DNA of 64,000 bases, from IMG/VR virus record IMGVR_UViG_3300029258_005166, positions 71,445 to 135,444 of that record; one strand, given 5' to 3'. The notes beneath the pieces are model-generated. The model was not told the DNA's origin. It was given only the letters and a program-made list of their open reading frames with translations, and ran no database searches. Source of the DNA: a virus. The translations under genes and the position numbers were made by a program. Below, piece after piece: positions 11,791 through 20,513 of the stretch; the stretch's first letter is position 1, and the number at the start of each line of letters is the position of its first letter.

Positions 11791-12075
11791 TCATTTATAT
11801 CGAAGTTTTACGATATAGAAATCGGCATCTTGACCAATTGACGTAAATTCAACTTTCGTGAATGTCCATTTCTTCATTGGAACCCAGACAGTGATCCACA
11901 TTGGTCTTTCAATCCGTTGAAGCACCACACTATCCTCAGGATCGTACTCTCGTTTTATTGTAAGCATTGGATTGCATTTTTTTAAAAAGAACAATGTGGT
12001 TTCTTTTTTGTCTTCATCAACAATTGCATTCGAACAATGTTGCCCATCAAATTCGTATTTACGTCCGTATGACAT
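11791..12075 (-). CDS. Hypothetical protein
   Basis: ORF adjacent to and co-oriented with the upstream minus-strand run. Confidence 0.6.
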   Translation of the reverse strand: MSYGRKYEFDGQHCSNAIVDEDKKETTLFFLKKCNPMLTIKREYDPEDSVVLQRIERPMWITVWVPMKKWTFTKVEFTSIGQDADFYIVKLRYK

Positions 12076-12076
12076 T

Positions 12077-12865
12077 CTATTTCTCCACTTTCTCTAGTTT
12101 ATCTCTTGGTCCCACCCAATGCACTATGTAACTTTCTGGGTGGTCAATTCGTATGGCTTTCAATCTTTCTTTCGGGTCAGAAATTAAATATTGTTCACGT
12201 TCATGAAACTTGCCACGCATCTTAAAGTTCGGGGGAGTGTTGTATTTGATATCCAACAGAATCAAGTCCGTTTTCCCCAGAGTGTTCACGGCATAACAGA
12301 GCATGTCTTGATCGCAAGTTTTGGTTTTTTCTCGCAGGATTGGGTTGGAAGTCACAAAGAACGTGGTGGCGGCCCACAAATCTATGATTTCATTTCCCTT
12401 ATTCCAACCCACCACTCCCGAATTGAGAGGCACGATTCCTGCACTTGGGCAACATAGCCGACCGAGCAGTTCCAAACTGGCGGCCATATCGGGGCTCGTA
12501 AACGGAAAGACAAAGAAGGCTTCCTGTCGGTCCAGGACGTTGAACATCTCGTCCAATCCTCTTAACGGAACAGCGTCGGCATCAATCCAAATGGTTTGAT
12601 CGAAAGGACTTTGCAGACACTTGAATGGCTTTTGGTAGGCCTCGATTGGGATCTTCCGTGTTGATTTCCCCTGACAGAGAAAGGGGTGCATAGGTATCGG
12701 ATCGAGCCAAGTCACATCATATGATTCCAAGAGTGCCGCATATTCTTCGCACAGGCCATCATCGAAAACGGCAAGTTCTATTCCTTGTTCTTGACAGGAC
12801 AAGGCGAAAAGCTCTAGGGTGGGGATGTATAGATCGGCAGCCCCAGTAATGATTCCCTTAGACAT
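12077..12865 (-). CDS. GT-A fold glycosyltransferase (GT8/nucleotide-diphospho-sugar transferase-like)
   Basis: KP..SPFDQTIWIDAD, NSGV, DQD, HW motifs. Confidence 0.75.
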   Translation of the reverse strand: MSKGIITGAADLYIPTLELFALSCQEQGIELAVFDDGLCEEYAALLESYDVTWLDPIPMHPFLCQGKSTRKIPIEAYQKPFKCLQSPFDQTIWIDADAVPLRGLDEMFNVLDRQEAFFVFPFTSPDMAASLELLGRLCCPSAGIVPLNSGVVGWNKGNEIIDLWAATTFFVTSNPILREKTKTCDQDMLCYAVNTLGKTDLILLDIKYNTPPNFKMRGKFHEREQYLISDPKERLKAIRIDHPESYIVHWVGPRDKLEKVEK

Positions 12866-13280
12866 CTTTTTTTAAAGCCCAACAATCATAGTGTTTTTTT
12901 GTGACACGGAAACCACATTTCTCATAGAATTTTTTAGCACGATACACAAAGGCAGTCTCCACAACAACTTTGGATTTGTTCAACCTTTTTGCCTTTTTTA
13001 TTGCTTCTTGAATCAACTTAGTGCCAACACCTTTTTTCCGACTCCCTGCTTTCACTATCAGGGCGGAAATATAGATGCTGTTTCGTATAGGTGTCAGTAC
13101 AATTGTTCCAACAATGATTTCGTTATCGATTGCAATTTTAATTTCATGGTTTTTGATAGCTGCATCGATAGCTGCGAGTCTCGCATATTCAAGACAGATA
13201 TCTTTGCCAATTTTGTTTAAGGAGCAAAATAAGCCCAAAAGAGCCTTTCGATCCTGATGTCTAGCAGATACGGTTTTCAT
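12858..13280 (-). CDS. GNAT N-acetyltransferase
   Basis: RKKGVGTKL acetyl-CoA motif; AKKFYEKCGF. Confidence 0.85.
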   Translation of the reverse strand: MKTVSARHQDRKALLGLFCSLNKIGKDICLEYARLAAIDAAIKNHEIKIAIDNEIIVGTIVLTPIRNSIYISALIVKAGSRKKGVGTKLIQEAIKKAKRLNKSKVVVETAFVYRAKKFYEKCGFRVTKKHYDCWALKKDV

Positions 13281-13696
13281 TTATTTCCCTTAAAGGGATT
13301 CGCCCCTAAATTCAAGATCATCTGGAAGCTTTTCATACGAGGGGCAGGCAACTCAGTCCACCGAAACCAATGCCAACATTCGCATTTGTTGGGTTCCATT
13401 ACTTTTGCTTCGCCTGAAATCCAGTCGGCCACCATGAAGATCGTGACGTAGTGTTTGTTTTCATCAAAGTATCTGGCATTCGCTATCGTCCAAAATTCGG
13501 GATGAGTTACATTTAACTCTGGGCCCGCTTCTTCGTGCATCTCGCGAATGGCTGCATTGGCAAATGTTTCCATAAACTCTAGGTGCCCACCTGGAAAAGC
13601 CCAGGTGCCATAGCAATGGTTGCATTTCCTCTTGTGCATTAGAACTTTGTCTTCACGTCGAATCGCTAGACAGATCCCTACTTTCGGTCTTTCCAT
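13277..13696 (-). CDS. Nudix hydrolase (MutT/NUDT15-like)
   Basis: Nudix box GGHLEFMETFANAAIREMHEEAG; EPNKCECWHWF. Confidence 0.92.
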   Translation of the reverse strand: MERPKVGICLAIRREDKVLMHKRKCNHCYGTWAFPGGHLEFMETFANAAIREMHEEAGPELNVTHPEFWTIANARYFDENKHYVTIFMVADWISGEAKVMEPNKCECWHWFRWTELPAPRMKSFQMILNLGANPFKGNK

Positions 13697-14035
13697 TGGC
13701 CAAGCCTTTCTTTAACACCTCAAAGCTATAGTTGTGTTTAAGATAGTGAGCAATATCTGTATCAGTATAGCCCAAAGCTAGACCTAATGCAATGTCGAAT
13801 TTAACCGTGGTTTCATCAAACTTTCTACCTCTATCTTCGTAAGGATACAAATCCCAAGCCGCCGAGACCGCATCGAAATCTTCTTCGTAACGGTAGACGG
13901 CATACTTAGCCATGTTGGGTGGTCGTTTGGCTAATTTAGGGATGCGTTTCATTTTGATGTAACCTGTTTCCACGTAACGGTTTGCGGCAAGCCAAGCAAG
14001 CTCCTCTTTAACAACAGCAATAGGTTTTTTGCCAT
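13653..14035 (-). pseudogene. 3' part of a 147-aa hypothetical gene interrupted by the IS605 composite
   Basis: Joins in frame to 16258-16318 when 14036-16257 is removed (...KDLA/DGKKPIAV...). Confidence 0.75.
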
Positions 14036-14073
14036 CTGTGACGCACCACGGGGCAAGCCCCGTGGCTTCGTGC

Positions 14074-15263
14074 CTATCTAACCGATGCAAGTTCGGTTAG
14101 GGCTAAGCATTGTTTTTTCTTGGCTCTACGACAAGCACTGTCATTATCTGACTGTAACCTCTTATCATCCCCAAGCGTAAATTCCCGTGCGTCCCACGGT
14201 ATATTTTTCATCGCTATATTCTTAATGTTGATAGCGGCATTTAAGTCTCTGTCCATCTTCATTCCACATTGTTCACAACAGAATGTTCGGTCTTGAAGCA
14301 TTTGGTCTGTGTCCTTCCATCCACAACAATGGCAAGTCTTACTGCTTGGCTCAAATGTCCCTATTTCAAGAAACACTTTGCCACTCCACTCTGACTTATA
14401 CTTCAACTTTTGCTTAAAACTATACCAACCAACATCGGCTATACTTTTGGCAAGATTGTGGTTTTTCATCATGCCTTCAATGTTCAGTGTTTCCAAAGCA
14501 AATCCATCATATTTGGCTATCATACGACTTGTGATTTGATGTTGGAAATTACTTCTTGATGAAGTCTCGCAACCTTGATCCGTTGTTTGTTTCTGTTCTG
14601 CCCGCCTTTCTTTCTCCGAGAAAGTATACGTTGGGCTTTATTCAACCTTCTTTCATGCTTTCTTAATACTCGTTCGTTTCCGATTGTTGTCCCATCGGAC
14701 AATGTAGCAAATGTTTTCAGACCTACATCTATGCCAACAACATTGTCTGTGTTTGTATTTGGTCGTTTGATTTTTAGTTCGCACAAAACTGAACAATACC
14801 ACTGGTCGCCATCTTGTTTAACAGTGATACTTTTGACTTTACCTTTATATGGTCTGTGTTTAACCCATTGAACTTCGCCAATCTTTGGAATGAATACAAA
14901 CCTTTTGTTGAGACGAAACTTCTGTGGAACAGTTAAACCATCTTGATATTTCTTTTTCTTGTGTTTGGGAAACTCACGGATGCCTGCAATGAAGTCTTTT
15001 AATGCTCTATCAAAAAACCTGCCCACTTGTTGAAGTGATTGGCTAAACGTGAGTCCGAGAAAGTCATGTTCTTTTTTGAGTTTAGGGATGGAAGTAATGA
15101 GTTCGTGAGCAAATACGAACTTACCTGTGGTTTCATACTGCCGCTGGTTCATATCAAGAAACCTATTCCAAAGGAAACGGCAGTTTCCACATTGTTGTTT
15201 TAATTGTTGTTCCTGTTTTTTCGTTGGATACAACCTATATCTGTATGCTCTTAATATCTTCAC
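14074..15263 (-). pseudogene. tnpB: TnpB split by a frameshifting deletion near 14555
   Basis: N-part AYRYRLYPT, VGIDVG (RuvC-I); C-part ETLNIEGM, SSKTCHCCG, CEQCG, DRDLNAAINI; frames switch at RLHQ/RSNFQHQITSRM. Confidence 0.9.
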
Positions 15264-15691
15264 TCTTCCTCATCAAACTCTTTTTGCTCTTGAATGTATC
15301 CTTTAATTGTATCAGCACTGACAAACCCAATCGTGCTAATGAATTTTCCTTCTGACCACAATGAACCGCAACGTGAGTAGAAATTTTTGAGTGCATAGAA
15401 ATTCTTAAACAACTCAATGGCTGATATACTCTTGAAAGTTCGCACAATATCTGATGGGGCAACCGTTGGTTTTGCACCTATGAAAAGATGCACATGGTCA
15501 GGCATGACTTCCATCTCTATAATTTCATACTCATACTTCTCGGCAATTTGTTGGAAGATTTCTTTCAGTTCTTTTGCTACATCACCTTTCAACACTGAAA
15601 ATCTAAACTTTGGACACCACACAAGATGATATTGGCAAAGATAGACACAGTGGTTAAGTGCTTTGTATTTCTTCTTGCGTTTCTTGCTCAT
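15260..15691 (-). CDS. tnpA: IS200-type Y1 (HUH) transposase TnpA
   Basis: YHLVWCPK, MPDHVHL (HUH), LWS, YIQEQ. Confidence 0.95.
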   Translation of the reverse strand: MSKKRKKKYKALNHCVYLCQYHLVWCPKFRFSVLKGDVAKELKEIFQQIAEKYEYEIIEMEVMPDHVHLFIGAKPTVAPSDIVRTFKSISAIELFKNFYALKNFYSRCGSLWSEGKFISTIGFVSADTIKGYIQEQKEFDEEE

Positions 15692-16066
15692 GGAGTTCGT
15701 ATTTCTCCTGCACCGCAGTCCTAATTAGGTCTTGGTAGGAGAGGGTCTTTTCTTCTTCCACAGAGAAAATGCGAGCCAGCCGTTCCAACTGTCTCTTCCA
15801 ATCCTCTGGACCTATTCTATTATAGTAGCATCCCTACTATATCTATACAACAAAATGTAATTTTGATGGAATTTTTGGAGATTTCACCAGACCATCAACA
15901 GACAACAATATACTAAATAGAATTGAGCGTAGTCAATAATTCATACTATGGCGGCTTACATCCACGACCCAAGGGCTGGCACTTTCGTTCGTTTCGCTCC
16001 GCTCAACTCGCTCTCAGTGCCAGCATTTTTGCGTTGCAAAAATGTCATGGTTTTACGCCGCCGATT

Positions 16067-16257
16067 ATAACGCTGCGAAAAATATCGCAGCACGGGCTGC
16101 ATCAACCAGCCTATTGTCGTCCGCTAAGGAACTGTCAAAAGTTGCTTAGAATTGGAATGACAAGCCCCTACAATCCGAAGGATTGTTGGGTCATAAAGCG
16201 AACGAGCGTTAGCGAGTGAAACTATGACTCAACCTCTTTAGGGTAGGGGTAGTTGAC
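16067..16257 (+). mobile_element. Remnant of a second IS605 element: tnpB C-terminal codons, omega-RNA region and right end
   Basis: Reads (DY)NAAKNIAARA.., then CAAG-CCCCTAC...GTAGGGG-TAGT-TGAC with matching guide/cleavage pair CAAG/TGAC. Confidence 0.75.
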
Positions 16258-16318
16258 CTGCAAGATCCTTGATTGGCTCTGGTAAGGGCTGTACCTTTTT
16301 CCCCTTTTTTTTAGACAT
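16258..16318 (-). pseudogene. 5' part (MSKKKGKKVQPLPEPIKDLA) of the IS-interrupted gene
   Basis: GGAGG RBS upstream; in-frame join to 14035. Confidence 0.75.
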
Positions 16319-16393
16319 AAATACCTCCGAAATGAGTTTTAAGGTGTGAAAATTAAGGTGTGATGCTATAGAAGAGTATGAAATTCCAAAAAA

Positions 16394-17173
16394 TTACATT
16401 AACCAAGTGGGCTGAAGTAATCTGCGATGAAGTTCGGCATTTTTCTCCATAAAAGGAATTGTCCATTCAATACCTGTCTTTTTTATTCGACTCATTACAA
16501 GTGCCATTTCCGAAAGTCTTGATTGAAAACGTTTTCTTGAAACTGACCTTTGCCATATTCGTTGCATTTGGCCGACAGACGCAATGGTTCGATTCGCTAC
16601 ACTCAGAAGTGCCCTGATTCTGGCCGATTTGATTCTTTTTGCATGATTTCCAAAGGAAACGTGATGAAGCAAAAGCTTTTGAAACTTAGGTGTATTTTGA
16701 ATTATGGATTTTCGAACCGCAAAGTTACATGTCCTGAAAGACTTAAACCCATATTTTGTTCTTGGGTTGTCTGTGAATGCCATATTCCAATGAATTATGG
16801 CCGCACTTTGGCTCGAAAGCCGAGAAGCAAGTTTTGGACTGATCCAATCATCATCATCTATAGGCACAATGTAGGCATCCTCCTCATTCTTCTTGCATTC
16901 CTGTTTAAGAGCTTCGAAGCCTTTAACCACCTTGACTCCTACAAATGTCTCTTCGGCAAGCTCCTTGACTCTCGCCCGAAATGTGAAATAGTCTATTTGA
17001 AAAATTTGATTCCACAAATCAAAAAATATTTTGTTTGCTTTAAACCATTTCAGAATAGCCTTCCCTTCGGTCTCTCTCCCTCCAGGGCCGAATCTGGGAT
17101 TTTGGCTCATAAATTCCTTCATCGTCATATCCGCCCAGTCAATATTATGTCTGACAAATACGATGGTTTCCAT
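16394..17173 (-). CDS. Putative glycosyltransferase-like protein
   Basis: IVPIDDDDW motif; start moved to METIV. Confidence 0.45.
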   Translation of the reverse strand: METIVFVRHNIDWADMTMKEFMSQNPRFGPGGRETEGKAILKWFKANKIFFDLWNQIFQIDYFTFRARVKELAEETFVGVKVVKGFEALKQECKKNEEDAYIVPIDDDDWISPKLASRLSSQSAAIIHWNMAFTDNPRTKYGFKSFRTCNFAVRKSIIQNTPKFQKLLLHHVSFGNHAKRIKSARIRALLSVANRTIASVGQMQRIWQRSVSRKRFQSRLSEMALVMSRIKKTGIEWTIPFMEKNAELHRRLLQPTWLM

Positions 17174-17242
17174 TAAAGTCCTCAGAGAGTCCCGCCGATA
17201 TTTATTGTAACTAATTAACATTCTAAAACGGAGAAACCTGAA

Positions 17243-17689
17243 ATGACTATCGCAACAAAAGTAAATCCAAATCATGTCTGCCAAAATGACCTCATGGCCT
17301 TTATTTACTTCGCCCGAGTGGAGAAAAATGATCGGGGAGAAACCCTAAAGGTATATGATCTAGACAACCAGAAGGAAATGTGAGTCTCTGGACCACAACT
17401 CATCGAAAATTCGTTTTCTGCGGATCGGTATGAAAAAGAAGAAAGGGTCGCAAAAATGAAGGCCGCTGAAATCCTGGTCAACGCTTATCACCGACCTCTG
17501 ACCGTCTGCTTCGTCAAGAACGATGGCACAGAAAGAACCTTGAGGGGCCGACTCGTCAAACCAGAACCACTCCTGGGACGCAGCACTGTTGAAGATCTCG
17601 ACGTAACCAATGGAAATCGTCTGCGTCTGGTCGATCATCGAACCATCAAATGGATAGTCGTGGATGGTACTAAGTATACGGTAAAATAA
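17243..17689 (+). pseudogene. WYL/Sm-like SH3-barrel phage protein with one in-frame TGA (17381-17383)
   Basis: GGAG RBS + ATG 17243, same frame as ORF 17456-17689 (TVCFVKNDGTERTLRG...RLVDHRTI). Confidence 0.6.
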
Positions 17690-17740
17690 GAGCCTTTGCG
17701 GCAAAAGGCTCTTTGCCGCTTTGCGGCAAAAGGCTCTTTG
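17688..17740. repeat. Rearranged triloop hairpin with 22-bp direct repeat
   Basis: CTTTGCGGCAAAAGGCTCTTTG at 17694-17715 and 17719-17740. Confidence 0.8.
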
Positions 17741-17757
17741 TCCATCTACATATAGGC

Positions 17758-18369
17758 ATGAAGCGATTTGTTTTGCTCAACAAGTTGATTAAAGCCAATC
17801 AGTATCGGAGTTATCTTGAGATCGGTACGGCCAAACATGAAACTTTCCGAAGAATTGCGTGCGATATAAAAGTGGGAGTTGATATATCCAACAAATACAG
17901 TCCTACTTATCACATGTCATCGGACGTTTTTTTCCAGAAACCGTATCAATTTAAACCCAAGAATTTCGATCTTATTTTCATTGATGGATTACATTTACAA
18001 GATCAAGTAATGCGGGACATCCTAAACTCACTTGCTGTACTCACGCCAAACGGTACTATTGTCTGCCACGACATGAATCCTGCCACCCAAAAAACTCAAT
18101 TGCCCAAACATCCCAAACGACGAGGAAGCTGGCATGGAGATTGTTGGAAAGCCTGGGTGAGCTTGCGAAGATCCCGAAAGGACTTGCAAATGTTCGTTGT
18201 GGATGCAGATTCAGGTTGTGGGGTTATCAGAAGAGGCTGTCAAACCATTTTGAGCGACAATGAAGAGTTAACATGGGAGAATTTTCGAAAGTATCGCAAA
18301 GAATGGCTCAATCTAATCACTATTGAAGAGTTTCTTTTACGGCTCAGATATTCGGCTTCTTTTCTATAG
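17758..18369 (+). CDS. Class I SAM methyltransferase (Methyltransf_24-like)
   Basis: YLEIG, FDLIFIDGLH, GTIVCHD, WHGDCWKA. Confidence 0.85.
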   Translation: MKRFVLLNKLIKANQYRSYLEIGTAKHETFRRIACDIKVGVDISNKYSPTYHMSSDVFFQKPYQFKPKNFDLIFIDGLHLQDQVMRDILNSLAVLTPNGTIVCHDMNPATQKTQLPKHPKRRGSWHGDCWKAWVSLRRSRKDLQMFVVDADSGCGVIRRGCQTILSDNEELTWENFRKYRKEWLNLITIEEFLLRLRYSASFL

Positions 18370-18892
18370 GAATGTAGGGAGGAGCATTTTCATCTTTTGC
18401 CGATAGAATATACCCTCCTGGTGGCTTTCGAATTTCGGCCTCGGGCCATTCTATTCCAAATGATTGGTAATGCCAATCCTTCTCTACGCCGGGTTGATAA
18501 GTTTGGTCTTTTAGATAAACCATCACCGTGGGCTCCTCGGCAGCAAAGAAGCCATGTCCACAACCTTTAGGAATAAAAACTTTCATGGCAAGGTGCCCAG
18601 ATAACCATATGCCCTCCCATTCCAAATAAGTCGGGGAATCGGGACGTAAGTCTACGATAACATCAAATAGACTGCCTGTCACACATGAGACAAATTTGTT
18701 GTAGGGAGCCCAATGAATGCCCCTGATTACTCCTCGGGTTGATGTGGAACATACTATGTGATTCCATTTTGCTTGGATTTTCGAATCCACCCAATCTTCA
18801 CTATAGATCTCTTGTAGAAACCCTCGATAATCTTCATATTTCTGTGTCTTAACCGTATAACAATCTCGTATTTTTGTTGGTGTAATCTTCAT
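18344..18892 (-). CDS. rmlC: dTDP-4-dehydrorhamnose 3,5-epimerase-like protein
   Basis: DYRG, RGIH, DVIVDLRPDSPT, IPKGCGHGF, LSAKD. Confidence 0.9.
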   Translation of the reverse strand: MKITPTKIRDCYTVKTQKYEDYRGFLQEIYSEDWVDSKIQAKWNHIVCSTSTRGVIRGIHWAPYNKFVSCVTGSLFDVIVDLRPDSPTYLEWEGIWLSGHLAMKVFIPKGCGHGFFAAEEPTVMVYLKDQTYQPGVEKDWHYQSFGIEWPEAEIRKPPGGYILSAKDENAPPYIPIEKKPNI

Positions 18893-18894
18893 TG

Positions 18895-19242
18895 TTATCT
18901 AGAATGACTTGGATTTCGCCATTCTTCTATACATCGAGGGCATGTATACCCATGTCTCTCATTAAATTCTTCACAAGCGGACGATCCCCCGTGATGGAAA
19001 CAAAAGTGTGCGTAAGGCAATTCGGCCTCTTTGACAGCAATGTGTGTGCCTAAACGATGCCACCAACCTTTTCCGACGTATTCATAGGTATTCCCCTGAT
19101 GGCCTCCGCAATGTTCGTTCCTTCCACAGTGACATATAGTTCGCCATCTGTAATGGTAGTTCCCCAGTGGACATCGGATCAAAAGCCAAGGAAAGTATTT
19201 AACACATAGACGATGGAACCAAGTTGACCTTGCACTAGCCAT
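18895..19242 (-). CDS. Cys/His-rich hypothetical protein
   Basis: ORF preceded by ACTCTGTTA-N4-ATG motif. Confidence 0.55.
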   Translation of the reverse strand: MASARSTWFHRLCVKYFPWLLIRCPLGNYHYRWRTICHCGRNEHCGGHQGNTYEYVGKGWWHRLGTHIAVKEAELPYAHFCFHHGGSSACEEFNERHGYTCPRCIEEWRNPSHSR

Positions 19243-19255
19243 GTCTTAACAGAGT

Positions 19256-19282
19256 AAGCCCGCTGGCTTTGCCAGCGGGCTT
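19256..19282. repeat. Perfect 12-bp palindrome, TTT loop
   Basis: AAGCCCGCTGGC-TTT-GCCAGCGGGCTT + T-run on + strand. Confidence 0.85.
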
Positions 19283-19285
19283 TTT

Positions 19286-19669
19286 TTAGTTTTTGCCTCT
19301 ATCTACTACGTTCATTTGAACACGATCCGCTTGCCAAAACTTCCTGCCAAATTCAACAATGACATCAGGATCAAATGGCTTACAAGAAAATAGATTAAAC
19401 AAGACTAATCCAGTTGCCAAAGCATGGATAACAATGTTGCTTGTTTTAATCCATTGAAATACACTTATTCCTTTAAGATGAGGTTCTGTGGCCTCCATAT
19501 CCACCCAAAAGATTGGCTCGCCATGAGCCTCCATATCTGAAAGTTTGATGACTTCATCGAGAAAAACCCTCAGATTTTCCGTGGTTGCCTTGGCAACGTC
19601 ACAACCATGAAAGTCAATTACGGCCTCTAATCCGTAATTCCCAGTCGAAAAATGTTTGTTGTATGTCAT
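19286..19669 (-). CDS. S-adenosylmethionine decarboxylase-like proenzyme
   Basis: IDFHGCD, GIS....TSNIVIH, NLFSCKPFD pattern. Confidence 0.75.
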   Translation of the reverse strand: MTYNKHFSTGNYGLEAVIDFHGCDVAKATTENLRVFLDEVIKLSDMEAHGEPIFWVDMEATEPHLKGISVFQWIKTSNIVIHALATGLVLFNLFSCKPFDPDVIVEFGRKFWQADRVQMNVVDRGKN

Positions 19670-19710
19670 TCATGGGACCTCCAATAGATTAACTATTTAG
19701 AAGAGTAATT

Positions 19711-19980
19711 TCAAATTTTAGTAAGATCAAAAGAGGTCCATTTGAATGGATTTTTAAGTCGGGCTAGGTCCTTTGGATCGGCTATGCCGGGACGAACCAT
19801 TTTCAAAGGTTTTTGGCTGTATTCAATGTCGTAATATGTTACAAAATCGGCAGCGGTAGGCGTCACGGCCAGAGGAGGATAATTGCCCAAAGTATCCCCA
19901 ATGTCGGTGTATAAACCAAGTCTTGCACCGGTTCTAGTATCGTTTTCAGTTAGCCACAATCGAAAATTAAGGAATTTCAT
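19711..19980 (-). CDS. Small putative internal head protein
   Basis: N-terminus MKFLNFRLWLTE, capsid-targeting-like. Confidence 0.5.
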   Translation of the reverse strand: MKFLNFRLWLTENDTRTGARLGLYTDIGDTLGNYPPLAVTPTAADFVTYYDIEYSQKPLKMVRPGIADPKDLARLKNPFKWTSFDLTKI

Positions 19981-20513
19981 ATCATTTTTTGGAGATCGTT
20001 CAAAGCTCCATGACCTCCACCTCCCGGAGCCGAAGGCCCAGTAATTAAATATCGTTTCTGTAAATCTGGATCAGTTGTACCTATCGCTGCATCTATATCA
20101 ACAGGCTGAATGCCTACATTTCTTAAACGATCAGAAATGTCTTGCAAAACACTTGGGTTCACCGGCCACTGATTGTTTTGGGCTAGTCTTTCAAGATCGA
20201 AGATAACCTTTTGAACTATATCGTTTTTGTCTGTTCCCTGAGGAGGTATAGCAGTATCATCGGGACCATAAATTGGTCCTGATGATACCTCGTTCCTTCT
20301 TTTTAACCATTCTGAAAAAGTAACAAACCATTCGTTTTTTTTGCGTGGGAGGCCTTTTCTTTTTGTTTTAGCGAAATGCCGAAGTTGTTTTGCCGACATA
20401 CTGTTATACATTTGTTTTGCTGCACCATATAAACTTCCTGGATCGATTTCTCCACGTTTGGCTGCTAAAGCCATTGCTGCTGCCTTTTGTTGTTGTTTTG
20501 ATTCTGCTGGCAT
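19977..20513 (-). CDS. DUF3008-like N-terminal domain protein
   Basis: MPAESKQQQKAAAMALAAKRG...GAAKQMY..MS..QL..FA.TKRKGLP. Confidence 0.7.
   Translation of the reverse strand: MPAESKQQQKAAAMALAAKRGEIDPGSLYGAAKQMYNSMSAKQLRHFAKTKRKGLPRKKNEWFVTFSEWLKRRNEVSSGPIYGPDDTAIPPQGTDKNDIVQKVIFDLERLAQNNQWPVNPSVLQDISDRLRNVGIQPVDIDAAIGTTDPDLQKRYLITGPSAPGGGGHGALNDLQKMI

What the first reader, a model, noticed from the sequence alone, without database searches (positions are those of the whole stretch)
15950..16257. Two different IS605 end hairpins carry the same kind of inserted module with tandem G.A pairs (possible ssDNA priming signal)
Seen: the left-end hairpin of the minus-strand IS (CCACGAC-CCAAGG-[69 nt, 15975-16043]-GTCATGG) and the right-end hairpin of the plus-strand remnant (CCCCTAC-[62 nt, 16172-16233]-CTCTTTAGG-GTAGGGG) each have an insert beside the apical loop. 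Removing it gives an ordinary IS hairpin. The two inserts differ in sequence but share one design: a short triloop hairpin plus a 9-11 bp stem, extended by 2-3 bp blocks alternating with GA/GA steps. They read GA-GC-GA-GTT-GA-GC-[GGA]-GC-GA-AAC-GA-AC-GA and GA-AC-GA-GC-[GTTA]-GC-GA-GT-GA. In both, the GA-rich version is on the strand TnpA would excise. Known: IS200/IS605 move as ssDNA circles, sheared tandem G.A pairs and GNA triloops are stable DNA motifs, and a similar GAGCGCAGCGAG tract lies in the ColE1/pBR322 primosome assembly region. Inference: either IS ends carry a priming or protein-loading module for the excised circle, or a REP-like micro-element targets IS end hairpins.
Basis: partly seen in the sequence, partly recalled or inferred. 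Interest (0 to 1): 0.85.

Follow-up and report, generated by a model that had tools for sequence, protein, structure and literature searches.

The report
Stable DNA fold inside transposon hairpins
A group of small jumping genes that live in giant phage genomes carries a conserved extra two-hairpin DNA fold, built from unusually stable G-A pairs, inside the left-end hairpin that their transposase grips; what it does there is still unknown.

Summary
Both inserts lie at the stated coordinates and share one design: a triloop hairpin, then a 9-11 bp stem continued by 2-3 bp Watson-Crick steps alternating with tandem GA/GA steps. The stem is capped by C(GNA)G, the sequence motif of the very stable DNA "mini-hairpin".

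I found 19 distinct IS-end hairpins with this module, almost all in fragments of very large phages. 16 are left ends, one is the window's right end, one is a left/right hybrid and one is ambiguous. Thirteen right ends and 13 left ends of module-free TnpA relatives are plain hairpins.

On 15 distinct sequences, 92.9% of cells pair, against 34-42% when partners are slid. 20 of 31 pairs change on both sides. The module diverges together with its host end (r = 0.74). It was not found outside IS ends in 744 kb of four phage records. It therefore looks like an inherited, top-strand-specific expansion of the left-end TnpA hairpin, not a REP-like micro-element.

Function is untested. My best guess is a single-strand DNA fold that keeps the left end folded and free of SSB. 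Priming remains possible.

The scan had not noted this module on other DNA; related GA-capped hairpins were noted elsewhere.

The parts
15962..16050 (-). Left-end (LE) TnpA hairpin of the minus-strand IS605-type element, including the module. The outer stem is CCATGAC/GTCGTGG, and the apical remnant is C-CTTG-G.
   Evidence: sequence. Covariance model R1 scores 33.7 bits, E 4e-7. DNA fold -18.5 kcal/mol, z -3.4.
15975..16043 (-). The 69-nt module of the LE. It has hairpin 1 (ATTTTTGC-AAC-GCAAAAAT, 16025-16043) and stem 2 (GCTGGCACT/AGTGCCAGC, 15975-15983 with 16016-24). Stem 2 is continued by GA-GC-GA-GTT-GA-GC-[GGA]-GC-GA-AAC-GA-AC-GA. The apex GCGGAGC lies at 15996-16002.
   Evidence: pairs covary across 15 distinct copies. 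(apex and GA contexts).
15950..15961 (-). Inner flank of the LE (ATGTAA-GCCGCC on the top strand). GCCGCC is complementary to GGCGGC at 16057-16062.
   Evidence: The same flank occurs in L003, L011, L016, L021 and L310. Related flanks occur in the other LE copies.
16051..16070 (-). Outer flank of the LE (ATCGGCGGCGTAAAAC on the top strand) and the target TTATA. The IS terminus lies at about 16065/16066.
   Evidence: 5 of 5 left ends carrying this 16-mer follow TTAT[A/G]; the other LE copies have TT[T/C]A[T/C] 5-8 nt further out.
15907..15936 (-). Sigma-70-like promoter (TTGACT-18-TATATT, 10 of 12) downstream of the module. The element's own transcript would therefore not contain the module.
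   Evidence: This is a consensus match only.
15260..15691 (-). tnpA, a Y1 HUH transposase of 143 aa.
   Evidence: PF01797, E 3.5e-39.
14074..15263 (-). tnpB in two overlapping frames (247 + 149 aa), probably frameshifted. The 94%-TnpA relative L310 has one 403-aa frame.
   Evidence: (PF12323, PF01385, PF07282).
14036..14069 (-). Right end (RE) of the minus-strand IS: GAAG, a plain hairpin CCACGGGGCTTGCCCCGTGG (14046-14065), then TGCGTCAC. It has no module.
16066..16149 (+). Remnant of the 3' end of another tnpB (..YNAAKNIAARAASTSLLSSAKELSKVA*), cut by insertion of the minus-strand IS after TTAT(A).
   Evidence: A close relative with the same C-terminus is in L438.
16161..16257 (+). Right end of the plus-strand remnant: CAAG, hairpin CCCCTAC...GTAGGGG with the module, then TAGTTGAC.
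   Evidence: R1 scores 93.5 bits. The flanks are of RE type, as.
16172..16233 (+). The 62-nt module of the RE. It has hairpin 1 (AATCC-GAA-GGATT, 16172-16184) and stem 2 (TTGGGTCATA/TATGACTCAA). Stem 2 is continued by GA-AC-GA-GC-[GTTA]-GC-GA-GT-GA. The apex GCGTTAGC lies at 16206-16213.
   Evidence: The apex equals the St-1/alpha3 mini-hairpin sequence quoted in PMC13037366.

Best explanation
Shown: the two inserts are copies of one conserved, self-folding domain. It belongs to the left-end TnpA-binding hairpin of a clade of IS200/IS605 elements (tnpA+tnpB, tnpB-only and gene-less mini forms) found in fragments of very large phages.

The domain sits in the 5' arm of the host hairpin, after its 7th base. 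The host helix can therefore still close around it. It consists of a triloop hairpin plus a 9-11 bp stem. That stem is extended by short Watson-Crick steps alternating with tandem GA/GA steps and is capped by C(GNA)G. This full fold can form only on the GA-rich top strand, the strand that reads left end to right end. The domain is inherited with the left end. The window's right-end copy is a rare secondary transfer, in a family where left and right hairpins do recombine (single-hairpin hybrid L438b).

Inferred, not shown: the domain acts at the DNA level on single-stranded DNA. It would be a hyperstable nucleus that resists SSB and nucleases. It would make the left-end hairpin fold fast and stay folded, so that TnpA can find and hold the left end. 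On a lagging-strand template the left end is exposed before the right end, so it has to persist until the right end is exposed.

The confidence given (0.5) blends about 0.85 for the identity statement with about 0.3-0.35 for the inferred function.
For: Recurrence. I found 19 distinct module-bearing IS-end hairpins. 16 have left-end flanks, 1 is a right end (the window), 1 is a hybrid with a left 5' flank and a right 3' flank (L438b), and 1 is ambiguous (L438a).

Plain right ends. There are 13 distinct ones. These include 7 of 7 elements that had downstream sequence.

Plain left ends. 13 distinct module-free TnpA relatives have plain left ends. Of 106 loci encoding TnpA relatives (26 viral, 80 metagenomic), only L310 (94% identical TnpA) hits the model.

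Structure. On 15 distinct rows, 92.9% of cells pair, against 33.9-41.6% with slid partners. 20 of 31 pairs change on both sides. The covariation score is 0.553 against at most 0.105, and 0 of 500 shuffles reach it.

Strand. The reverse strand scores 15.7-18.7 bits against 102-110 bits.

Not dispersed. In four phage records (744,038 bases) all 8 strong hits are IS ends. The 2 weak hits lie on plain right-end hairpins.

Co-divergence. Module identity against host-end identity gives r = 0.74, and 0 of 2000 Mantel permutations reach it.

DNA-level reading. The apex is GCGNAGC in 13 of 18 full copies, CCGNAGG in 3, GCGTTAGC in 1 and decayed GCAAAGC in 1. GCGNAGC and GCGNNAGC are the mini-hairpin DNA motif. 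That motif is reported to survive 7 M urea, resist nucleases and bind SSB poorly (passages of PMC13037366). A promoter-like site lies downstream of the module. No Rfam family matches.

Position. 6 of the 7 plain left-end hairpins printed have one unpaired base at position 6 or 7 of the same arm (my reading of that output). This is a place where the helix already tolerates an interruption.
Against: No call tests function; the stabilising role is inference.

The argument that the left end is exposed first rests on recalled replication-fork geometry and on recalled IS608 work.

The alignment used for the pair counts was fitted to the model's structure. Five B-type rows are near-identical, which inflates cell counts and the Mantel correlation.

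Nearest-neighbour DNA folding gives only z = -2.3 to -3.4.

TnpA was found in only 1 of the 4 phage records, so most copies may be immobile.

Module-like two-hairpin GA elements also occur outside IS ends in other phage contigs (L133, L161). This could mean the unit has a general role, such as priming, that is not tied to TnpA.

Confidence: 0.5

Rival explanations
1. Single-strand initiation signal. The module recruits a primase or primosome, or another loader, on the top strand or on the excised circle. The single-stranded transposon would then be converted to duplex or copied.
For: The apex motifs GCGNAGC, GCGTTAGC and CCGAAGG are the ones described at the primase-dependent complementary-strand origins of G4, St-1 and alpha3 and at RSF1010 ssiA (passages of PMC13037366). 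ColE1 carries GAGCGTAGCGAG near its origin region. A module-like two-hairpin GA element lies in a 2-kb non-coding, AT-rich stretch with tandem repeats in contig L133/L391.
Against: Nothing links the module to a primase. On the linear template, a primer laid at the extreme left end would copy only about 40 nt of the element. Peel-and-paste transposition needs no second-strand synthesis before integration (established IS608 model, recalled). Other GA-capped hairpins lie in ordinary intergenic gaps, for example between scaffold and capsid genes in L096. No call mapped the ColE1 tract to the primosome site.
Confidence: 0.15
2. Tolerated expansion segment. The insert arose once at a permissive point of the left-end hairpin. 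It persists because any insert there must fold out of the way, and it has no positive function.
For: Plain left ends are the rule in TnpA relatives, so the module is dispensable for the family. Selection merely for staying out of the way would also give covariation. A different insert of about 85 nt sits in the same arm in L312.
Against: The GA steps and the C(GNA)G cap are kept across lineages whose TnpB proteins are only 23-41% identical. An ordinary Watson-Crick hairpin would fold away equally well. The one copy with a decayed apex (GCAAAGC, L438a) sits in an element whose tnpB is broken into three frames.
Confidence: 0.15
3. RNA-level element. The module would be part of a transcript, acting as an insulator or terminator against read-through into the IS, as a small RNA, or as part of the TnpB guide RNA.
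For: The GA-rich strand is also the sense strand. Tandem G.A pairs are stable in RNA too. The window's right-end copy lies where omega-RNA scaffolds are encoded.
Against: 16 of 19 copies are at the extreme left end, upstream of the promoter-like site and far from the omega-RNA region. No T-run follows the fold on the top strand. No Rfam match at E up to 1. The cap loops are GNA or GTTA, which fit the DNA mini-hairpin rule and not the stable RNA tetraloop classes (the latter recalled).
Confidence: 0.08
4. REP-like or PATE-like miniature mobile element that inserts into IS end hairpins.
For: Filled and empty versions of the same right-end hairpin exist (window against L039, L036, L037). The insertion point is the same, after ..AC and before CC, in different hairpin types.
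Against: No copy lies outside IS ends in 744 kb. The modules have no shared termini (listing). Module and host end co-diverge. The insertion point does not follow the family's TTAT-type target.
Confidence: 0.07

Closest known systems
Subterminal imperfect palindromes of IS200/IS605 elements (IS608, ISDra2), the hairpins bound by the Y1 transposase TnpA
   Same: The ends have the same layout. There is a hairpin near each end, a target 5' of the left end (TTAT-like here), Y1 TnpA and TnpB genes, and top-strand specificity.
   Different: Here the left-end hairpin carries a 55-70 nt self-folding two-hairpin domain in its 5' arm. I know of no described IS200/IS605 end with this. Searches found none, but the library is limited.
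Mini-hairpin DNA d(GCGAAGC)/d(GCGNNAGC) (Hirao and colleagues; review PMC13037366, passages read)
   Same: The cap of the long stem is GCGNAGC, GCGTTAGC or CCGNAGG in 17 of 18 full copies.
   Different: The cap is the tip of a much longer stem with repeated tandem GA steps, and it sits inside a transposase-binding hairpin. Its stability was not measured here.
Single-strand initiation signals: G4/St-1/alpha3 complementary-strand origins, RSF1010 ssiA, ColE1 ssiA (n'-pas)
   Same: They are hairpins on single-stranded DNA carrying the same cap motifs. ColE1 carries GAGCGTAGCGAG.
   Different: No priming evidence exists for the module. There is no overall sequence similarity. The location at a transposon end is new.
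REP/RAYT elements and PATE-type gene-less IS200/IS605 derivatives
   Same: They are hairpin DNA handled by Y1 HUH enzymes. Gene-less mini forms of this very family exist (L128, L412b, L437).
   Different: The module is not itself dispersed and has no ends of its own.
IS200 left-end stem-loops (a transcription terminator and an RBS-occluding hairpin; recalled)
   Same: It is extra structure at the left end of a family member.
   Different: Those act in RNA and lie within the transcript. This module lies outside the element's promoter-like site and has a DNA-type cap.

Membership tests
IS200/IS605 family (the host elements) | Y1 HUH transposase TnpA | tested here: met
   PF01797, E 3.5e-39, for window 15260-15691(-). 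TnpA is absent from G001-G003, whose elements are tnpB-only.
IS200/IS605 family (the host elements) | TnpB (OrfB_IS605 and Cas12f1-like TNB domains) | tested here: met
IS200/IS605 family (the host elements) | Subterminal hairpins at both ends and insertion 3' of a short conserved target | tested here: met
   Hairpins at the left and right ends. TTAT[A/G] lies directly 5' of 5 of 5 ends carrying the 16-mer. Strand transfer itself is not testable here.
Mini-hairpin DNA (GCGNAGC / GCGNNAGC) | Sequence motif: two G-C pairs closing a GNA or GNNA loop | tested here: met
   The exact motif occurs in 14 of 18 full copies. 3 copies have CCGNAGG and 1 has decayed GCAAAGC. The motif definition comes from PMC13037366.
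Mini-hairpin DNA (GCGNAGC / GCGNNAGC) | Extraordinary thermal, urea and nuclease stability; poor SSB binding | not testable with these tools
   The ViennaRNA DNA parameters have no term for it.
Tandem sheared G.A pairs in DNA | 5'-GA-3' opposite 5'-GA-3' in a pyrimidine-GA-purine context (rule recalled) | tested here: inconclusive
   GA/GA steps next to the apex occur in 18 of 18 copies. In a crude count, 49 of 75 GA dinucleotides in the arms have the Y-GA-R context. That count also includes GAs that sit in Watson-Crick stems. Pair geometry is not testable.
Primosome assembly site / single-strand initiation signal | Primase- or PriA-dependent priming on single-stranded DNA | not testable with these tools
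   Only motif resemblance is available.
REP / MITE / PATE-type mobile micro-element | Dispersed copies at many unrelated sites, with defined ends | tested here: not met
   0 of 8 strong hits lie outside IS ends in four phage records. No shared termini.
TnpB omega-RNA scaffold | Encoded at the 3' end of tnpB and the right end | tested here: not met
   16 of 19 copies are at left ends, and 13 right ends lack the module.
Any Rfam 15 family | Covariance-model match | tested here: not met
   No match on the module at E up to 1 in window 12000-20000.

The most novel reading that the evidence does not exclude
The module is a transposon-borne single-strand DNA signal. It would be a primase, primosome or other protein-loading site, or an SSB-excluding landing pad, that a clade of IS605 elements acquired for life inside giant phages. 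The left end or the excised circle would then have its own complementary-strand initiation, turning peel-and-paste into a replicative 'peel, copy and paste' pathway. The same two-hairpin GA unit would serve as an initiation signal in non-coding control regions of other phages (L133, L161).
Probability: 0.12. Interest if true: 0.85.

Novelty: new variant of a known kind. Interest (0 to 1): 0.6.

Why it matters
IS200/IS605 ends are the model for how an enzyme recognises DNA by its folded shape. These elements also carry TnpB, the ancestor of Cas12.

A conserved, covarying domain built only from DNA-specific stability motifs, placed inside the transposase's hairpin and almost only at the left end, suggests that folding or persistence of the left end on single-stranded DNA is a limiting, selectable step. 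This may matter most in giant phages, which have their own replication and SSB proteins.

The idea can be tested directly with oligonucleotides, purified TnpA and excision assays.

The module also gives a natural example of long helices held by repeated tandem G.A steps capped by the mini-hairpin. That could be useful for DNA nanostructures and for engineering single-strand transposon ends.

Tried and rejected
- Rfam: nothing matched on the module.
- TnpA-based loci from IMG/VR: 26 loci at 36-67% identity, none with the module.
- Scan of genome contigs with a left-end pattern: it stopped at 120 rows. I recognised 0 of 120 as a module. Host organisms therefore remain unknown, and this says nothing about absence.
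Only L128 is an IS end. 15 have a flanking stem of 7 bp or more. tblastn with TnpA and TnpB hit only L128.
- The MAFFT alignment of all copies (A1) misaligned the apex. I built the model from three well-aligned copies instead (A3).
It did yield L437 and L438. L488 is a different GC-rich hairpin.
- The 98-aa ORF 15923-16219(+) across both modules has no Pfam hit. I read it as an artefact of the GA-rich repeats.
- I considered that 15950-16062 might be a right end of another element. I rejected this because its flanks match 16 other left ends that precede tnpA or tnpB.
- The look-up of sequencing runs, read laying, structure prediction and complex prediction were not used. None bears on a DNA fold.
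Full report
**Setting.** The window is bases 71445-135444 of a 135-kb IMG/VR virus record that CheckV rates 25% complete. The finding lies at the junction of two IS200/IS605-type elements.

On the minus strand there is a complete element:
- tnpA at 15260-15691 (PF01797, E 3.5e-39).
- tnpB in two overlapping frames at 14074-15263 (PF12323, PF01385, PF07282).
- A plain right-end hairpin, GAAG-CCACGGGGCTTGCCCCGTGG-TGCGTCAC, at 14036-14069.

Its left end lies at 15950-16065. It abuts TTATA inside the remnant of the 3' end of another tnpB on the plus strand (16066-16149). That remnant is followed by its right end, CAAG-hairpin-TAGTTGAC, at 16161-16257.

**Check of the observation.**
- Top-strand reading of the left end: CCATGAC, then hairpin 1 (ATTTTTGC-AAC-GCAAAAAT), then stem 2 (GCTGGCACT...AGTGCCAGC) enclosing GA-GC-GA-GTT-GA-GC-[GGA]-GC-GA-AAC-GA-AC-GA, then CC-TT-GG-GTCGTGG.
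- The right end reads: CCCCTAC, then AATCC-GAA-GGATT, then TTGGGTCATA...TATGACTCAA enclosing GA-AC-GA-GC-[GTTA]-GC-GA-GT-GA, then CCT-CTTT-AGG-GTAGGGG.

With the insert removed, each host hairpin equals a plain hairpin seen elsewhere. These are the element's own right end and the right ends CCCCTACC-CTTT-AGGGTAGGGG and CCCCGACCT-CTTT-AGGGTCGGGG in related phage contigs.

DNA folding of about 100-nt pieces gives -18.5 and -15.5 kcal/mol on the GA-rich strands (z -3.4 and -2.3). The complements give -15.4 and -12.2. These parameters ignore the special stability of G.A tandems and of the cap.

**More copies.**
- A third copy lies at the very start of the same record (L003).
- The 16-mer of the left-end flank found four further true ends among 27 IMG/VR matches.
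- Looking upstream of every tnpB in four related phage records showed the module at the left end of three quite different elements. Their TnpB proteins are 41% and 23% identical to one another.
- A left-end pattern scan of IMG/VR returned 14 loci, 12 of them module-bearing left ends.

In all I count 19 distinct module-bearing IS-end hairpins.
- 16 have left-end flanks: window B, L310, L016, L021, L408, the truncated L023, L003=L011, L128=L406, L413, L073, L412a, L437, L071, L409=L411, L412b and L407.
- 1 is a right end, window 16165-16249.
- 1 is a single hairpin with a left-end 5' flank and a right-end 3' flank (L438b).
- 1 is ambiguous (L438a, with a GAAG 5' flank).

The contigs are 18-527 kb. 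For those with a CheckV estimate, completeness of 6-25% implies genomes of a few hundred kb. G001 is a complete 527-kb record.

**Filled against empty.**
- Right ends are plain in 13 distinct cases: window B, L070, L073=L039, L071, L036, L037, L408, L409=L411, L412b, L413, L128, L310 and a B-like end in L438.
- The closest relative of the window's plus-strand remnant (L438, nearly the same TnpB C-terminus) has a short, degenerate right-end hairpin with no module.
- In an unbiased sample of 106 loci encoding TnpA relatives (26 viral, 80 metagenomic), the model hits only L310, whose TnpA is 94% identical.
- Thirteen distinct relatives at 38-69% identity have plain 20-23-nt left-end hairpins in the same layout: target GTTATA, outer arm, GAAAA, hairpin, ATGAA, outer arm.
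- By my reading, 6 of the 7 hairpins printed carry one unpaired base at position 6 or 7 of the 5' arm. The module sits after position 7 of that arm.
- One relative, L312 (72% TnpA), has a different, GC-rich insert of about 85 nt in the same arm. It contains a long stem capped by GA-GCC-GAA-GGGC-GA.

**Structure.** I built model R1 from three copies with a hand-written structure. It found all other copies at 33.7-109.6 bits, while reverse strands scored 15.7-18.7 bits.

On the resulting alignment of 15 distinct rows:
- 92.9% of 450 cells form standard pairs, against 33.9-41.6% when partners are slid by 1-3 columns.
- 20 of 31 pairs show changes on both sides.
- The covariation score is 0.553, against at most 0.105 for slid partners. 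0 of 500 shuffles reach it.
- Hairpin 1 has 4 of 5 pairs with double changes. Stem 2 has 8 of 10. The Watson-Crick step between the two GA steps has 2 of 2. The cap's outer pair switches GC to CG once.

Caveats: the alignment is fitted to the model, and five B-type rows are nearly the same. The 9-row version gave the same picture.

The GA/GA steps next to the apex are present in all 18 full copies. The cap is GCGNAGC in 13, CCGNAGG in 3, GCGTTAGC in 1 and GCAAAGC in 1. The last is in an element whose tnpB is in three pieces.

**What the cap is.** I read passages of the review PMC13037366. It defines mini-hairpin DNA as GCGNAGC or GCGNNAGC. It reports that the motif stays folded in 7 M urea, resists nucleases and binds SSB poorly. 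It lists occurrences at the primase-dependent complementary-strand origins of G4 (GCGAAAGC) and of St-1 and alpha3 (GCGTTAGC, the exact cap of the window's right-end copy). It also lists RSF1010 ssiA (CCGAAGG, the cap of L437 and L438b) and N4 early promoters. The rule that tandem G.A pairs are sheared and stable in a pyrimidine-GA-purine context is recalled. A crude count gives 49 of 75 GA dinucleotides in that context.

**Mobile micro-element or part of the end?**
- In the four phage records (744,038 bases) the model gives 10 hits at E up to 1. The 8 strong ones are all IS ends, and the 2 weak ones lie on plain right-end hairpins.
- The modules share no termini (listing).
- Pairwise identity of modules correlates with that of their host ends: r = 0.74 over 91 pairs, and 0 of 2000 permutations reach it.

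I therefore read the module as an inherited part of the left end.

The right-end copy in the window is best explained by exchange between left and right hairpins, whose arms are identical in this lineage. That such exchange happens is shown by L438b, one hairpin with a left 5' flank and a right 3' flank. It is also shown by L437, a left end followed after 8 nt by the last 12 nt of a right end.

**DNA or RNA?** A sigma-70-like site (10 of 12) lies at 15936-15907, downstream of the module. CTATATA-like boxes lie downstream of the module in other copies. The module is thus outside the element's likely transcript. No T-run follows it, no Rfam family matches, and the cap obeys the DNA rule. I conclude, as an inference, that it acts on single-stranded DNA of the top strand.

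**Mechanism (inferred).** The insert leaves the 3' strand of the host hairpin continuous. Seven base pairs below and 1-3 above it can therefore stack into the usual TnpA hairpin, while the module projects from one side.

A nucleus that folds at once, excludes SSB and resists nucleases would make the left-end hairpin form and last. On a lagging-strand template the 5' (left) end is unwound first. It must stay unreplicated and folded until the right end, 0.3-2.1 kb further on, is exposed. This would explain the left-end bias. The geometry, and the dependence of IS608 excision on length and on the lagging strand, are recalled and were not tested here.

I give this function about 0.3-0.35. I give the identity statement (a conserved left-end expansion domain) about 0.85.

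**Rivals** are priming or loading (0.15), a tolerated expansion segment (0.15), an RNA role (0.08) and a micro-element (0.07). Leads for priming:
- The occurrences of the cap at known single-strand origins.
- GAGCGTAGCGAG in ColE1 at 1332-1342. PMC3167613, read in passages, confirms that ColE1-type origins have ssiA but gives no sequence.
- Module-like two-hairpin GA elements in a 2-kb AT-rich non-coding stretch with tandem repeats (L133/L391) and in a hairpin-rich intergenic region (L161).

Against a uniform replicative role, other GA-capped hairpins sit in ordinary gene gaps, for example between the scaffold and capsid genes of L096.

**Novelty.** Searches of the paper library listed no paper describing such an insert in IS200/IS605 ends. 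I saw only listings and abstract starts for the IS608, TnpB and Meers et al. papers. The library lacks most subscription journals and ISfinder.

Earlier notes of this scan mention GNA- or GA-capped hairpins in other HUH-type mini-elements of CPR bacteria and archaea (unchecked). The cap may therefore be a recurrent device of single-strand mobile DNA. The scan had not noted this module on other DNA.

**Verdict.** This is a new variant of a known kind of element. It is real, conserved and directly testable. Its function is open.

Noticed in passing
window 15692-15830 (-); L310:1990-2169: A small ORF lies just upstream of tnpA and overlaps its start. In L310 it is 59 aa (MSKNIQINVALPEDWKRQLERLARIFSVEEE...). 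It is conserved in TnpA relatives at 55-72% identity. It matches RHH_1 only weakly (E 0.014, below the cut-off). The window's copy has lost about 41 nt, including the start codon.
   Followed up: partly
window 14074-15263 (-): tnpB of the minus-strand element is split into two overlapping frames (247 + 149 aa). The L310 relative has one 403-aa frame. The window's copy is probably frameshifted.
   Followed up: partly
G000:C1:1-140 (L003) and G002:C1:50627-50769 (L011/L072): Two contigs from different samples end at the same base, about 139 nt inside the same left end. This fits a multi-copy or polymorphic insertion that breaks the assembly.
   Followed up: no
window 16051-16149; L072 (G002 end): In both places an element of this family has inserted after TTAT inside the 3' coding end of another tnpB. 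In the window the target lies in the codons for D-Y-N of the conserved ..DYNAAKNI.. motif.
   Followed up: no
L438:6460-6600; L437:5380-5560; L128; L412:2600-3000: Gene-less derivatives of the family. L438b is a single hairpin with a left-end 5' flank and a right-end 3' flank. L437 is a left end followed by a right-end tail. L128 and L412b are mini-elements of about 350 nt with a filled left end and a plain right end.
   Followed up: partly
L312:2060-2200: The left-end hairpin of a 72%-identical TnpA relative carries a different GC-rich insert of about 85 nt in the same arm. It includes the stem GACGACAT/ATGTCGTC capped by GA-GCC-GAA-GGGC-GA. The covariance model does not detect it.
   Followed up: partly
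L133/L391:1490-1800; L161:11490-11960: Two-hairpin GA modules of the same design lie outside IS ends. One is in a 2-kb AT-rich non-coding stretch with 15-mer and 10-mer tandem repeats, which looks like an origin. The other is in a hairpin-rich intergenic region next to rightward genes.
   Followed up: partly
L087, L092, L093, L095, L096, L134, L136, L154, L157, L183, L445: Single hairpins have Watson-Crick stems that continue into GA-NN-GA-GCGNAGC-GA-NN-GA tips. They lie in intergenic gaps of unrelated phage contigs, for example between the scaffold and capsid genes in L096. This looks like a wider class of GA-capped hairpins.
   Followed up: partly
L067, L068 (G002, G001): The same phages also carry IS607-type elements, with a serine recombinase upstream of tnpB. 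These lack the hairpin ends and the module.
   Followed up: no
window 14036-16257: Both outer boundaries of the composite are right ends on opposite strands, and the only left end is internal. I did not test its claim that excision restores a 147-aa ORF.
   Followed up: partly
L403 (ColE1 NC_001371) 1300-1370: The tract GAACGACCGAGCGTAGCGAGTCAGTGAGCGAGGAAGCGGAA contains one GAGCGNAGCGA motif, where 0.01 is expected by chance. No call showed that it is the mapped ssiA site.
   Followed up: partly
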